In this document: in pieces, positions 15,001 to 21,265 of the stretch
Layout: every line of letters starts with the position of its first letter
How positions within the stretch are numbered: the first letter of the stretch is position 1
Source of the DNA: Candidatus Rifleibacteriota bacterium
GTDB lineage: Bacteria > Muiribacteriota > Ozemobacteria > Ozemobacterales > Ozemobacteraceae
Length of the DNA: 21,265 bases
NCBI GenBank assembly: GCA_051747585.1
Contig: JBNJGH010000060.1
Span: 1 to 21,265 of the forward strand
Direction of reading: 5' to 3'
Made by a program: the position numbers

Positions 15001-18000
15001 GGCACAGAATACAACTACAGCACCATCGAGAACTCTAAGCGATCTTTCCACTTCGGCAGTAAAATCCACGTGACCGGGCGTGTCTATAATATTAATGTCA
15101 CAATCGGCCCAATGGCATTTAGTTGCCGCGCTTGTTATGGTAATTCCTCGTTCCTGTTCTTGAACCATCCAGTCCATAACAGCTGTTCCTTCATGAACCT
15201 CGCCCATCTTATAGGCTTTACCGGTATAATAAAGAATACGCTCGGTGGTTGTGGTTTTTCCCGCATCAATGTGGGCCACAATACCGATATTCCTTATATT
15301 TTTCATTTTTGAACTACTGGTAGTCATGAGTAAACTTTCCTGTTAATGAGAATGATTATACTGATAATTAATTAAACCCGGAAGTGAGAAAAAGCTTTAT
15401 TTGCATCGGCCATTTTATGAATTTCGTCACGTTTTTTCATAGTAGCGCCGTTATTACTGAGAATATCATCAAATTCAGCTGAGAGACGATCTGACATTGA
15501 TTTTTCTTTTCTTGCTCTGGAAAACTTGAGGATCCAGCGGAAAGTAAGAGCAATCGCACGGTCAGGTTTTACTTCGATAGGAACCTGATAGTTCGCCCCA
15601 CCAACTCTTTTGCTTCGTACTTCTACGAGAGGCTTGGCAGCTTCGACAACCTTCTTGAACAATTCAAGGGGATTATCTTCTTTTCTTTTTCTGGCAACTT
15701 TTTCAAGTGCATCGTAAAAAATACGACTGCCAATACTACGTTTTCCATCATACATCAAATTATTGATGAATCTGGTAACCAGCCTTGAGTTGTAGACTGA
15801 ATCAGGAGTTAATTCTCTTTTGGATATATGTCCACGTCGTGGCATGAATCAATCCTCCTTATTTCTTGGGCCGTTTGGCACCATATTTAGAGCGTCCCTG
15901 CATGCGGTTGGCAACGCCAGCGCAGTCAAGTGCTCCGCGAATGATATGGTAACGAACACCGGGAAGGTCTTTTACACGACCGCCACGAATCAGAACCACT
16001 GAGTGTTCCTGTAGATTGTGGCCAATACCCGGAATATATGCCGTTACCTCAATTTTGTTGGTCAGCCTGACACGAGCTATTTTTCGAAGAGCGGAATTAG
16101 GCTTCTTCGGTGTGGTGGTTTTAACCACAGTACAAACACCACGGCGTTGAGGACAATTCTCAAGAGCCGGTGAGTCAGATTTGTACTTAACATCACGTCG
16201 GGCCTTTCTAATAAGTTGATTAATGGTAGGCACAGCTAACACCTTCCTGATAAGTTATCCAGTCCCGCTAATAATGCAAGACTGCCACCCGATGAACCAA
16301 GGTGGATTGTAGATGATAGCATAAGTTAAATATGCTGTCAACGTACTTTTATTCAATAAAAGCGACTGTCAGACAATAAAAAAGCCCCCCGCTAAGGGGG
16401 GCCATTTTTTATTTTTTATCAGCCTTCGTCGGTTTCAGCTTTTTTCATGAAGAGGTCTTCTTCGAGCTGATCAAGATTGGCTTTATCGCTTGAGTCGACA
16501 AAAAGTTCGTCTGTTGGACCTTCGGCAGCTTCAATTTCAGCTGGAAGATTTTTGAACAAAATATCTTTCGATATGGAGATACCTGTTCCAGCCGGAATCA
16601 ATTTACCGATAATAAGGTTTTCTTTGAGACCTTTAAGATAATCGACTTTTGATTTAATTGCAGCCTTGGTAAGAACTCTGGTTGTTTCCTGGAAGGATGC
16701 GGCGGAAATAAAGCTATCTGTAGTCAGAGAAGCTTTGGTAATACCCTGAATCATAGGAACGCCGACAGGTGGTTTTTTACCTTTTTCGATCAGTTTATTA
16801 ACCTTTTCTTCAAACCTGCGAACATGTACTGATTCGTTAGGCAGAAATTCTGAATTACCAGATTCGGTAATTACAACTTTTCTAAGCATCTGACGAACAA
16901 TTATTTCGATATGCTTATCGTTAATGCTTACGCCCTGATCACGATAAACTCTTTGAATTTCATCCATCAGATAGCGTCTAACGAATGGCAGGCCAACAAC
17001 CTTAACAAGTTTTTTCGGGAAAACTTTACCATCAGTAAGAACGTCGCCAGCTTCGATATATTCGCCATCGTGAACTACCAGAGCGGTTGCACCAAACTGA
17101 ACCCTTACAGGTTTTTCGACACCGCTGTTGAAATCTCTGATCGCAACTGAGCTACCGGAGACATGAACAATGCCGGATTCTTCAGCAATAACTGCTTCTT
17201 TTTTGGGTTTTCTTACTTCAAACAATTCGGCTACACGTGGCAGACCCTGAATAATGTCTGTTGTTTTTCTTGCTGAGGCGCCCCATTTTGCAAGGATTTC
17301 ACCTTTTTTAACTTTTACGCCATCTTCAATTCTGAGTTCAGCGCCATCCATTATCTGGTGGGACTCACCCGGTTGAACGACAATGGTTTTGATTGTACTC
17401 TTAACCTTGCCTTCTTTTGATACATCGTGCTCAAGTAAAACAACACCTTTATTTTCGGCTTTTAATACTGCCAGAACATGACCTTGTTTGATCTTGTCAC
17501 CGTCTTCTACTCTTAAACAGCCTGCAGCTACCATGTCTTTGGTAATTGCATATTTTTTGTCTTTAATTACTTTCTGACAAATTCTAATGCCAACAGAGCC
17601 ATCGGAGTCTTCTACCTGTGAATAGGTCTGGAAAGGTATAGGTGCTATGGTCAGCTCACCGTCTTTTACGACAGTAGGAGGAAATTTCAAGCTCAAAGTA
17701 GCTGGATAACTGAATTCCACGCCACTATAAACCAGAATCTTTTCGATTATTTCTTCACAGATGATTTTGTTATAACCGTAGATATAGTTAACTTTACCAG
17801 CTATTTCAGAAGTCATAGGTTCAATGTCACTAACCAGTTTATCACCGGCTTTAACTACCTGACCATCTTCTACTACAACTGATGCGCCGGCTGGAACCGG
17901 ATACTGAACTTTAATATCATCTTCACCGATAATATTTACAGCTTCCTGTTCACCCTTAATTATATAAACTTCTCTGATTGAACCACGATTTTCTTCAAAC

Positions 18001-21000
18001 AAAGCAAACAGATCGTCATCAATTTCAGTGCCGCTTTCGGCCACAACTTCATCTGTTTCTTTATTGATTGCAGCTCTTGCCAGAGTGGCTCCTGGAAGCA
18101 CGTCTATATCGTCACTGATCAGATGTACCCTGGCCTCGGATTTAATGTCGGTAAGCTCGATAGTGCCATCGATTTCTGCTTGAATAACCAGTTTGGTAGT
18201 GAGTTCACCATCTTCTGCAACATCGCCACCATTAGGTATACGACAATTCTCTTTAGGCCTGAGAATTACGCCACGAGGAACCGGGTATTCGATTTCGTTT
18301 TTAACAATAACTCTTTTACGGTCAAGAGTTTTGTTGGCAGCGCTCTTTTCGTTAATTACTCTTACAACACCAGAGATTGGGGCTATAAGCGACAGGTTTT
18401 TATTCTGTTCATCTATGGCAGCAGCCATTTCGCCTTTGAATTCGTATTCTTCTTCAACTTCTTTAGCAATAGTAAGTTTAGCACCACCAGAAGACAGATT
18501 TAAGGTTCCTTCTACTTCAGAAACGATAGAGAGCATTTTCTGCCCCGGATATACCTCGTCACCATTTTTAACGTTCAATATGACACCAGAGGATTTAACC
18601 GTTCCGATTTTAGGTTCTTTAACGCTTTTTGGCATGTTGTATTCTTTGCGTTCGCCTTCTTTATCATCGGTTGGGAAAACAAAGATCATACCATTGTCGC
18701 TGATAACCTGTTTGTTTTTTATGCGAACCTTTTCAAGTTTTACTATACCATCGGTTCTGGCAATAGCAGCATGAGATTCTGCCGAAATTTCAGCCAGCAG
18801 GTTACCGGCATGTATAATTTCGTTATCTTCTACTTTTAAAGTTGCGCCCTGTGGTATTTTATAATCTTCGATAATGAAGTCTTTGGTAACAGGATCAAAA
18901 TCCTGGGTAAGTATTCTGATAATACCTTCATCAGAAACAACCATACCATCTTTCTGTTCGATGTCTTCGTAGATTACCTCACCAGTGTATCCTGAAACTA
19001 CGTTATTCGGATTGTATTCAGCAACAGCCTTACCCGGAGTTACTTTATCACCATCTTCTATACGCATTTCAGCGCCGACCGGAATATGGAGACGGTCTTT
19101 TCTGCCGCTTTTACTTTCGACCCCGAGGAAGCCACCAACAACAACTGTTTTGATATTGCTGCCAAATTCACTCTTATCAAAAGTTTCAATTCCTGAACCA
19201 ATTTCGAATTTCGCTCTATCTGAGACTTTAGCCAATTTAAGATTATCAAACCTTGCAAGGCCAGAGCTTCTTGCTTTTATATACGAACGTTGAGCCAGAG
19301 CAACACCACCAAGGTGGAATGTTCTCATTGTCAACTGAGTTCCCGGTTCACCGATCGACTGGGCTGCAATAATACCAACTGCTTCGCCGATATCTACAAC
19401 TTTGCCGGTCGCCAGATCTGATCCGTAGCACATCTGACAAATACCAACTTTAGAGCGGCAGGTAAGAGGTGAGCGCATTACAATTTTACTGCGAACTTTA
19501 ATTTCTGGAAATGCACCTTCGCCGAGTCTTTCAAGAACATATTCGTTAATTTCACGGTCGGGTCTAAGAATAATTCTGTTACTTCTGGGATCAATAAGCT
19601 GTTCGGCACAGATCATGCCGGGTTTCAGTTCATTGAAGGGAATTGGGAAATCACAATTTGACTCTATTTCACTTGCAATTTCATTGGTGCAGTATAGGCC
19701 TGCTTCAAGCTTAACCGTTTTCTTATTGACCTTAATAGAAAGGGTTCTACCGGTAGCTGGATTTACTATTGGTTTTGCCAGAACCCTTCCGGCTATCCTG
19801 TAACGAATCGGAACAACGATATCATCGATCATGATATTATTTGAAGTTCTGTTCTGACGAATTGGAGAGACTTCGACACCTAACTGACTTCCACAGTCCT
19901 GTTTAGTGATAACAACATCCTGAGCAACATCTACCAGTCTTCTGGTAAGGTAACCGGAGTCAGCTGTGCGCAGCGCTGTATCTACAAGACCTTTTCTTGC
20001 ACCGTATGTTGAAATGAAGTATTCAGACTGGTTCAATCCCTGGCGGAAATTTGATTTAATCGGGAAAGCAAGAATATCACCACGTGGATTCGACATCAGA
20101 CCACGCATAGCGGCCAGCTGTCGGATCTGTTGCATATTACCTCTCGCACCGGAGAACGCCATCATGTACACGGGATTAAATTCACCCAGATGAGCACTGG
20201 CTTCAAATTCCTGGAGAAGGTCATCGGTAACGTCTTCTGTTGCTTTTGTCCAGACATTAACTTCAGCCTGTTTTCTTTCATCACGACTGATTTCACCTTT
20301 GCCCCAACGTTCGCGTATCTTGACAACTTTTTTATCAGCCTGGTCAAGAATTTCATTTTTCTTGGGCGGATCAATCATATCAACAATAGAGATTGTAAGA
20401 CCGGAATAGGTAGCAAATTTAAAGCCAAGAGCTTTAAGTTTATCAAGAGTTTCACCAATTATTGAAAGTGAATACATGTCGAACAATCTCTTAATAAGAC
20501 TGGACACATTCCCTTTTTTAACCTGAAGATTCTGGAAAGGGAAACCGGAAGGCAGATTATCATTAAAAATAACTCTACCAATAGTAGTTCTTAAATAACT
20601 GTCTCTGACAGAATCTTTTTTGTCGTCTTCATCATACTGTTCAACCACCAGAGAATCTTTTTTGAGATATACCGGCCACTGAAGGCTGAACTGATTTGTT
20701 TCATAAGCATTCAGAGCTTCCTGCAGGCTATGGAATACAGGTGGGCGATAAACAATAATCTTATCTACTTTAGCTTTATTAAGCAGATTAATAGTTTCTT
20801 TTGAGTCCAGAACCGTTCCTGCAGGAAGATCGTCATCGACATCATCAGCCAGTTTAAAGTTAAACGGCCTGCCTTCGTTCAGCAGTAATTTTTCCCAGGT
20901 CAACCCCTTTTTGGTTTTGAGTTCAGTAACCGGATAACCATCGCCTTCAGGTTTTTCGATTGTCAGGTAGAACAAACCAATGGTCATATCCTGTGATGGG

Positions 21001-21265
21001 CTGGTAACTGGATTACCATCCGCTGGTTTTAGAATATTATTGCTGGAAAGCATGAGTAAACGTGCTTCGATCTGAGCATCAACCATAAGCGGAACATGCA
21101 CAGCCATCTGATCGCCATCAAAGTCAGCGTTATAAGCAGCACATACAAGAGGATGTATCTGAATCGCCTTACCTTCGATAAGAACGGGTTCGAATGCCTG
21201 GATGCCAAGTCTATGCAGTGTGGGAGCGCGGCTGAAGGGGAAATGGGAGATAAGCATGTCGGGTT

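What a model noticed while it worked through the whole genome (the two positions that open the first line are those of the whole stretch)
16419..21263. RNA polymerase beta-prime of ~2,025 aa with a cyanobacteria-sized multi-SBHM Si3 insertion in the trigger loop (phylum-w [...]
rpoC (g01890, C60:16419-21263, 1614 aa, continued at its 5' end by g00930 on C21:2-1354, 451 aa, ~33 residues overlap) encodes a beta-prime of about 2,025 aa, ~600 more than E. coli. Most of the excess is one ~530-aa insertion (g01890 res. ~860-1390) that splits Pfam Rpb1_5 where the trigger loop lies; its last module aligns with the end of E. coli Si3 and the trigger helix. It folds into a chain of about seven beta-rich SBHM modules whose best structural match is the Si3 domain of cyanobacterial RpoC2. 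Giant Si3 is regarded as a cyanobacterial/plastid hallmark; here it occurs in an unsplit rpoC, and 16 of 20 relatives from seven families of the phylum have rpoC frames of 1,992-2,380 aa.
Evidence so far: Rpb1_5 split into 409-858 (model 1-230) and 1391-1513 (model 180-264); overlap of the two pieces; phmmer vs PDB with res. 850-1400: only the last 60-170 residues match, E. coli beta' 1105-1165 (8e-12), cyanobacterial beta' (3e-14, 1e-13); recurring SBHM-type motif at 733, 896, 1129, 1250, 1395; tblastn of res. 870-1380: 12 of 12 Ozemobacteraceae 59-85% identical, frames 2,024-2,060 aa in 8 (711-1,693 aa in 4), 36-39% in family f10, piecewise 29-64% in five more families with frames 2,253-2,380 aa; AF2 with 13 sequences pLDDT 81.3, almost all-beta; Foldseek: T. 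elongatus Si3 8emb E 3e-10..1e-8 over ~600 columns, cyanobacterial RNAPs, Thermus insert 2auj 4e-7.
(Added by a program. Inside this text positions count along the whole contig: contig position 1 is position 1 of the stretch shown here. "Call 12" and the like, gene names such as g00115 and contig names such as C1 are that model's own, and its searches are not shown. The text may have been shortened before it was handed on; [...] marks where a part breaks off. The agent that wrote the report below was given it as the finding of a first reader that could run no searches.)

Follow-up and report, generated by a model that had tools for sequence, protein, structure and literature searches.

The report
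Giant RNA polymerase trigger-loop insertion
In one uncultured bacterial phylum the moving catalytic loop of RNA polymerase carries an extra domain of 660 to 1,040 residues, as large as or larger than the well-known cyanobacterial one, and, like cyanobacteria, these bacteria appear to lack the usual proofreading helper protein Gre.

Summary
Real, with corrected coordinates. The minus-strand rpoC of this Riflebacteria-type genome encodes a 2,022-aa beta-prime. The trigger-loop insertion is residues 654-1335 (682 aa), not 860-1390. It measures 664-1,043 aa in 34 of 34 relatives examined, always in an unsplit gene. It is an Si3-type insert: two E. coli-like SBHM domains, a predicted nested SBHM rod, and 1-5 BEAN modules not detected in cyanobacterial Si3. 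New here: Gre was found in 1 of 87 genomes of the phylum (on a phage-like contig), against Rho in 51 of 52. This repeats the cyanobacterial giant-Si3/no-Gre pairing in a non-cyanobacterial phylum. Limits: unsplit giant Si3 also occurs in Sericytochromatia and Obscuribacterales, other lineages have 465-737 aa inserts, and Margulisbacteria mostly lack Gre despite a short Si3. The beta-prime core groups with Cyanobacteriota plus Margulisbacteria (100/99), but ribosomal proteins do not show this and key outgroups are missing. Interior modules show no one-to-one match to cyanobacterial ones. Best reading: a separate expansion of a shared short Si3 in a Gre-less enzyme; function is inferred by analogy only. 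New variant of a known kind.

The parts
16419..21231 (-). rpoC, 3' part (about codons 419-2022 of the whole gene; residues 11-1614 of the window frame)
21232..21265 (.). 34-nt contig tip that does not continue the gene; probable assembly artefact
   Evidence: 98-nt overlap with C21, then mismatch; X1 record 6 leaves the window at 21231
21111..21131 (-). catalytic NADFDGD motif (residues 45-51), intact
20736..20966 (-). about 67-aa lineage insertion between PSQD and TTxGR (approx. residues 100-176), fold not determined
19929..20036 (-). bridge helix with YGARKGLVD signature and Asp at E. coli position 792
19485..19808 (-). tandem BEAN modules (486-514 and 549-592) where E. coli has one; +71 aa
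19305..19361 (-). N-terminal trigger helix (635-653)
17259..19304 (-). Si3-type trigger-loop insertion, residues 654-1335, 682 aa
18774..19304 (-). first two SBHMs, matching the whole two-domain E. coli SI3
   Evidence: 2auk Z 12.1, rmsd 4.5, 147 aligned, 26% identity
17274..18773 (-). predicted nested SBHM rod; its first and last half-units appear to form one domain
   Evidence: model 181..683 vs 8urw 440..984, 70 aligned, rmsd 1.8; inference from aligned range only
17961..18131 (-). BEAN-like alpha/beta module inside the insertion (about 1045-1101)
17202..17258 (-). C-terminal trigger helix (1336-1354) with Gln at E. coli position 1136
17028..17201 (-). ordinary jaw SBHM/HABAS module (motif at 1395), not part of the insertion
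   Evidence: aligns to 1105-1385 of E. coli beta-prime; Table 2 of PMC11515920

Best explanation
This is the housekeeping beta-prime subunit. Its trigger loop carries an Si3 (beta'i6) insertion that grew, in the ancestor of this phylum, from a short two-to-three-module Si3 by repeated insertion of SBHM units, then of BEAN modules (one in the 664-684 aa class, up to five in the 962-1,043 aa class). Shown: position, size, conservation, module types, unsplit gene, no chromosomal Gre found. Inferred: like cyanobacterial Si3 it is an elongated appendage tethered to both trigger helices; it swings when the loop folds and lies over the rim helix, where Gre and DksA dock. The enzyme would then proofread by intrinsic hydrolysis. 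Gre loss probably came first or alongside and freed that surface; the giant insert then locked the loss in. The expansion was most likely separate from the cyanobacterial one, although both may start from the same short ancestral Si3.
For: Insert 664-1,043 aa in 34 of 34 relatives measured, 10 of the 11 families; region matched in 78 of 87 genomes. AF2 pLDDT 81.3 and 79.7, mostly beta. First ~180 residues superpose on E. coli SI3, Z 12.1 and 12.7. BEAN profile from 56 outside sequences hits 11 of 14 short-class and 15 of 15 long-class inserts, 0 of 6 cyanobacteria-type, 0 of 5 Margulis-type, 0 of 20 Gracilicutes inserts. Gre: 0 of 31 (PF01272), 1 of 87 (PF03449; contig GC 23.7% vs 30.0%, phage-like genes), 0 of 5 (TIGR01462). 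Controls: Rho 51 of 52; Gre in 12 of 12 Atribacterota and 13 of 15 other outgroups. DksA-like protein in 1 of 52; the other 8 zinc-finger hits look like FmdE by eye. Cyanobacterial Si3 shields the Gre/DksA site (PMC10895346). Interior units score 7-34 against cyanobacterial interior units with no diagonal, up to 63-89 against each other; the last unit fits the Margulis last unit best (60).
Against: No structure of the whole enzyme; pTM 0.48-0.50, so the overall shape is unknown. Gre is also missing in 49 of 61 Margulisbacteria, whose Si3 is short, so a giant insert is not needed to lose Gre. Deleting cyanobacterial Si3 did not change catalysis (PMC10895346). The residues that raise intrinsic cleavage in E. 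coli mutants (PMC7026648) are only partly present (Q1136 24 of 24, D792 24 of 24, V940 14 of 24, V773 0 of 24); D792 and V940 are also common, and Q1136 occurs, in Firmicutes/Actinobacteria-type subunits. The module test has low power: presumably homologous cyanobacterial and Margulis units also score only 32 and 39. Both giant inserts have nine half-unit pairs and align best in register (score 182 vs 154 and 137).
Confidence: 0.55

Rival explanations
1. One origin: a nine-unit giant Si3 arose once, in a beta-prime ancestral to both this phylum and Cyanobacteriota/Margulisbacteria (by descent or by an ancient rpoC transfer); Margulisbacteria shortened it, this phylum added BEAN modules, and cyanobacteria later split the gene.
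For: Beta-prime core without the insert: this phylum plus Cyanobacteriota/Margulisbacteria 100/99 under LG+C20 (30 rows, 1,108 columns), 0.975 in FastTree with 69 rows. Bridge-helix YGARKG.VD in 23 of 24 phylum members and in 4 of 4 Cyanobacteriota/Margulis loci but 0 of 77 other loci. Same half-unit count and best in-register alignment. Gre found in 0 of 40 Cyanobacteriota.
Against: No diagonal among interior modules. Predicted nesting starts at unit 3 here and at unit 2 in cyanobacteria. Support for the clade falls to SH-aLRT 54 without the F-loop/bridge-helix and trigger-loop columns. Ribosomal proteins do not join the two groups (AU p 0.058, not rejected); beta gives 0.15. Deinococcus-Thermus, Synergistetes, Thermotogae, Armatimonadota and CPR are absent from my trees. 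Unrelated lineages also reached 465-737 aa.
Confidence: 0.27
2. Neutral accretion: after Gre loss the trigger-loop site simply tolerated domain insertions; the insert does no regulatory work and does not block the secondary channel.
For: BEAN copies also multiplied in beta (3) and elsewhere in beta-prime, a lineage-wide tendency. Length varies 664-1,043 aa. Si3 deletion left cyanobacterial catalysis unchanged (PMC10895346).
Against: The insert is kept in every member measured, with 57-86% identity inside the family and invariant interior motifs across families. The cyanobacterial Si3 head stabilises promoter complexes and affects growth under stress (PMC10120043 passages).
Confidence: 0.16
3. 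Assembly or annotation artefact (chimera, read-through into another gene).
For: The gene is broken at a contig end with a 34-nt foreign tip.
Against: Complete 2,021-2,060 aa relatives from several sources; a near-closed genome, G014, has the same insert; a 2,230-nt public contig spans the insert's start; GC of insert 40.5% vs 42.2% for the rest.
Confidence: 0.01

Closest known systems
Cyanobacterial/plastid Si3 of RpoC2 (type 3 beta-prime; PDB 8emb, 8urw, 8gzg, 9dvs)
   Same: Same site between the trigger helices; similar size (682 vs 622-681 by one measure); repeated SBHMs with apparently nested ends; host without Gre; shared bridge-helix signature.
   Different: Gene unsplit in all 34 measured; two continuous SBHMs first, then the predicted nest; BEAN modules inside; interior modules not matched one to one; Rho present (51 of 52), whereas its absence in cyanobacteria is stated in the listing of PMC12642595; up to 1,043 aa.
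E. coli SI3 / beta'i6 (type 4 beta-prime; PDB 2auk, 4iqz)
   Same: Same site; the first ~180 residues superpose on both E. coli SBHMs (Z 12-13, 21-26% identity).
   Different: 3.5 to 5.4 times longer; E. coli keeps GreA/B and DksA.
Margulisbacteria-type short Si3 (217-235 aa)
   Same: Unsplit gene, same bridge-helix signature, last unit most like this insert's last unit; Gre often not found (49 of 61).
   Different: About three units, no BEAN; Gre found in 12 of 61.
Thermus beta-prime lineage insertion (PDB 2auj; beta'i2 name recalled)
   Same: Chain of SBHMs that aligns with parts of the model (Z 9.6-9.8).
   Different: Lies in the N-terminal part of the subunit, not in the trigger loop; shows that such chains arise more than once.

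Membership tests
Si3 / beta'i6 trigger-loop insertion | Inserted between the two trigger helices of beta-prime | tested here: met
   TFHLGG ends at 653, DIIQGLPRV starts at 1336
Si3 / beta'i6 trigger-loop insertion | Built of SBHM (HABAS) modules with GD-box-like motif | tested here: met
   RPOC_hybrid over cut-off; fold match to 2auk; 5-8 motif hits per short-class insert
Si3 / beta'i6 trigger-loop insertion | Moves with trigger-loop folding | not testable with these tools
   needs structures of elongation complexes
Cyanobacterial type 3 Si3 | About 630-650 aa, 8-9 SBHMs | tested here: met
   682 aa, 8 clear plus 1 degenerate half-unit pair; long class 962-1,043 aa exceeds it
Cyanobacterial type 3 Si3 | Carried on RpoC2 of a split rpoC | tested here: not met
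   catalytic motif and trigger loop in one frame in the relatives and in P0001; note that Sericytochromatia P0160 and Obscuribacter L089 are also unsplit
Cyanobacterial type 3 Si3 | SBHM-only composition | tested here: not met
   BEAN hits in 26 of 29 phylum inserts, 0 of 6 cyanobacteria-type inserts; helical modules in both models
Cyanobacterial type 3 Si3 | Tail-fin-body-head nesting with module-for-module homology | tested here: inconclusive
   TM 0.10-0.17; no diagonal but low power; nesting inferred from aligned ranges only
Cyanobacterial type 3 Si3 | Host lacks Gre and DksA | tested here: met
   not found in those searched: Gre 1 of 87 on a phage-like contig, DksA-like 1 of 52
Cyanobacterial type 3 Si3 | Si3 head contacts sigma region 2 (SI3-sigma arch) | not tested
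   no complex was modelled

The most novel reading that the evidence does not exclude
The RNA polymerase beta-prime of Riflebacteria, Wallbacteria and Muirbacteria shares an exclusive ancestor with that of Cyanobacteriota and Margulisbacteria, and that ancestor had already lost Gre and begun to expand Si3. The 'cyanobacterial' polymerase design (giant Si3, no Gre, intrinsic proofreading) would then predate photosynthesis and the rpoC split, and survive here in an unsplit 2,000-2,440 aa subunit with the longest regular, domain-built Si3 seen in my searches.
Probability: 0.3. Interest if true: 0.82.

Novelty: new variant of a known kind. Interest (0 to 1): 0.62.

Why it matters
[quoted passage not shown] This phylum gives a second, phylum-wide case of a giant Si3 with no Gre, and shows that subunits of 2,000-2,440 aa persist unsplit. 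That uncouples size from the split and makes the proposed Si3-versus-Gre trade-off testable outside photosynthetic organisms, with a natural length series (about 230, 680 and 1,040 aa). The BEAN-in-SBHM mosaic is an architecture I did not find described.

Tried and rejected
ESM Atlas: only generic SBHM clusters, all under 0.9; no use. Sequence look-up and place look-up in earlier findings: nothing. A search of Atribacterota with the C-terminal region did not bear on the question. The mixture-model ribosomal-protein tree did not finish in two runs; LG+G4 on 23 of 41 rows was used instead. Nearest-hit ranking of the rim-helix/bridge-helix region gave Actinobacteria after the phylum itself; this was limited to the 7,995 word-sharing candidates and disagrees with the trees, so I did not treat it as phylogeny. 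RNA-library contigs X5 and X6 cover short pieces of the insert without differences, which does not show transcription. 'Longest bacterial trigger-loop insert' was rejected as a flat claim: two RpoC2-type proteins reach 1,040 and 1,291 aa through extra non-SBHM sequence, and higher-plant plastid SI3 is about 160 aa longer than the cyanobacterial one (PMC10120043). 'Cyano-specific' proofreading residues were rejected as independent support (see best explanation). No complex prediction was sent. Paper search returned noise. Absence from print rests on searches and on a search of the one held supplement of PMC11515920 (0 hits for Rifle, Wallbacteria, Muir, Ozemo or Margulis, so that file may not hold the species table). 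Lane and Darst 2010 and Iyer 2004 were not read (recalled only) and predate these genomes.
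Full report
What is in the sequence. The window ends in a 1,614-codon frame on the minus strand, followed downstream by rpsL, rpsG, fusA and the S10-spc genes. It is rpoC: Pfam Rpb1_2 to Rpb1_5 and strong matches to solved beta-prime subunits. The 5' part lies on contig C21, next to rpoB, with a 98-nt identical overlap; the lengths add up to 2,022 aa. The last 34 nt of the window contig do not continue the gene; a public contig leaves the window at exactly 21231 and runs on. A complete 2,022-aa relative is 94.9% identical.

Corrected boundaries. The trigger-loop halves lie at 635-653 and 1336-1344. The insert is therefore 654-1335, 682 aa, against 193 aa in E. coli by the same measure. It accounts for 489 of the extra residues; two smaller inserts give 67 and 71.

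Distribution. All 30 relatives first searched match the insert, 18 of 18 in the family at 57-86% identity. The region was found in 78 of 87 genomes of the phylum, 43 of 44 of good quality. I measured the insert directly in 34 of these: 679-684 (f1), 664-671 (f2), 671 (f8), 672-679 (f10), 676 (f11), 962-965 (f6), 978-985 (f5), 1,003-1,009 (f3), 1,035-1,036 (f4), 1,043 (f7). Family f9 (one genome, 70% complete) gave no match. Sources name relatives as Ca. Riflebacteria, Ozemobacter sibiricus, Wallbacteria and Muirbacterium halophilum; that these form GTDB's Muiribacteriota is my recollection.

Architecture. AF2 with 21 sequences gives pLDDT 81.3, pTM 0.50, nearly all beta; the 1,035-aa form gives 79.7 and 0.48 with five helical modules. 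The first ~180 residues superpose on the whole two-domain E. coli SI3 (Z 12.1 and 12.7). Model residues 181 to 683 align with cyanobacterial 440 to 984 over only 70 residues at 1.8 A; I read this as one domain made of the third start and the last end, with the rest nested inside. That is inferred from the range, as I had no coordinates. Foldseek ranks cyanobacterial Si3 first (E 3e-14 to 2e-11) but with TM 0.10-0.17 and rmsd 24-34 A. The helical modules are BEAN-like: a profile from 56 outside beta-prime BEAN segments hits 11 of 14 short and 15 of 15 long inserts at 8-34 bits, and none of 6 cyanobacteria-type, 5 Margulis-type, 20 Gracilicutes and 1 Fusobacterium inserts. These scores are modest; position, secondary structure and recurrence carry the call.

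Gre is missing. PF01272: 0 of 31. PF03449: 1 of 87; that gene sits on a contig of 23.7% GC among phage-like genes, while the same genome's rpoC contig has 30.0%. TIGR01462 at E 0.1: 0 of 5, including a two-contig genome and two rated 100% complete. Controls: Rho in 51 of 52 of these genomes; Gre in 12 of 12 Atribacterota and 13 of 15 other outgroups, 0 of 40 Cyanobacteriota, 0 of 3 Obscuribacterales. The DksA zinc finger hit 9 of 52 genomes; by eye one is DksA/TraR-like and eight are FmdE-like. [quoted passage not shown] These are small genomes.

How unusual. A profile of the insert against 1.84 billion representatives found only six proteins below 1e-30; the four longer ones are phylum-type, two are fragments, and all others match mainly the ends. 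Among those hits are other long inserts: Sericytochromatia, unsplit, 667 aa; Gracilicutes-type proteins with 630, 737, 468 (Coatesbacteria) and 465 aa; two RpoC2-type proteins with 1,040 and 1,291 aa. In 80 GTDB loci and 7 other records, inserts outside Cyanobacteriota/Margulisbacteria were at most 196 aa (83 of 87 measurable). In Cyanobacteriota, 12 of 41 sampled genomes have frames of 1,870-1,959 aa. Earlier scan notes report giant inserts of another module type in Poribacteria (not checked). So giant trigger-loop inserts recur, and unsplit ones exist beside cyanobacteria. What is special here is a whole phylum, the BEAN/SBHM mosaic, the size series and the missing Gre.

Origin. With the insert removed, beta-prime of this phylum is sister to Cyanobacteriota plus Margulisbacteria: 0.975 (69 rows), 100/99 under LG+C20 (30 of those rows). 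The clade appears in both halves (SH-aLRT 77 and 91) but drops to 54 without the F-loop/bridge-helix and trigger-loop columns, so part of the signal could be functional convergence. Eighteen ribosomal proteins keep the phylum together but not beside Cyanobacteriota (41 rows; 23 rows; AU p 0.058), and those trees are noisy at depth. Beta is uninformative. Several deep lineages were not available. Profile alignment of the two giant inserts is best in register (182 vs 154), but unit-by-unit scores show no diagonal in the interior, and units resemble each other more; the test has low power. I put separate expansion from a shared short Si3 at about 0.55 to 0.6 and one origin at about 0.3.

Mechanism. 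Shown: an insert tethered to both trigger helices, conserved, in a lineage where Gre was not found. From published work: cyanobacterial Si3 swings on trigger-helix folding, covers the Gre/DksA site, and its deletion leaves catalysis unchanged (PMC10895346, parts 1-4 of 7 read); its head contacts sigma and aids growth under stress (PMC10120043, passages); cyanobacterial polymerase has fast intrinsic hydrolysis (PMC7026648, passages and section 15). Inferred: the same occlusion and intrinsic proofreading here. The residues tested in that paper are only partly present and are not diagnostic.

Literature. PMC11515920 (parts 1-4 of 6 read) classes beta-prime types and names BEAN and HABAS; in the parts read it does not describe this lineage or BEAN inside Si3. 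A bioRxiv preprint (10.1101/2021.05.31.446380, passages) lists Riflebacteria and Wallbacteria among diderm Terrabacteria; its tree figure and supplements could not be seen and may bear on the sister-group question. PMC13408713 was seen as one passage. PNAS supplements were not opened. Searches found no description of this insert or of Gre absence in this phylum; the library lacks most subscription papers.

Verdict. A real, new variant of a known kind of insertion, more interesting for the company it keeps (no Gre, cyanobacteria-like core, no split) than for size alone. Interest 0.62.

Noticed in passing
L077:7927-14142 (-), G020:C1; also L088:3915-5558 (-), G026:C181: A 2,072-aa fused beta plus beta-prime non-canonical RNA polymerase with GADFDGD and no trigger-loop insert; the G026 copy lies beside AAA+ and JAB-like genes (labels by eye).
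   Followed up: no
window 12843-16242: rpsL-rpsG-fusA is followed directly by rpsJ with no tuf; an EF-Tu-sized frame (409 aa) is on C19 and a better-scoring EF-G-sized frame (703 aa) on C309.
   Followed up: partly
window 9364-10116: uL22 has an N-terminal extension of about 80 aa that looks S13-like by eye, and a Lys-rich tail.
   Followed up: no
window 7622-8254: uL29 is 210 aa, with a long charged C-terminal extension.
   Followed up: no
L062 (G031:C141:35000-54999): Low-GC phage-like contig with a GreA gene, tandem repeat proteins, RecA-like, Nudix and PhoH-like genes; the only Gre found in the phylum.
   Followed up: partly
G000:C21:1398-5525; L039-L047 rpoB frames: Beta also carries three BEAN-like modules; beta frames reach 1,520-1,636 aa in the families with the longest beta-prime inserts.
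   Followed up: partly
G102:C39, G093:C43, G122:C101: Three Margulisbacteria-phylum genomes have beta-prime frames of 2,283-2,324 aa with a normal trigger-loop region, so the extra length lies upstream.
   Followed up: no
G152-G163: Atribacterota beta-prime (1,591-1,721 aa frames) shows a gap of roughly 0.8-1 kb within the C-terminal match, i.e. a large insertion after the trigger loop.
   Followed up: no
P0051, P0050, P0080, P0057: Gracilicutes-type beta-prime subunits with trigger-loop inserts of 630, 737, 468 and 465 aa; P0050 has a BEAN inside. Gre status unknown.
   Followed up: partly
P0114, P0129: RpoC2-type proteins with 1,040 and 1,291 aa trigger-loop inserts; P0114 has charged helical-looking extra sequence near the end of Si3.
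   Followed up: no
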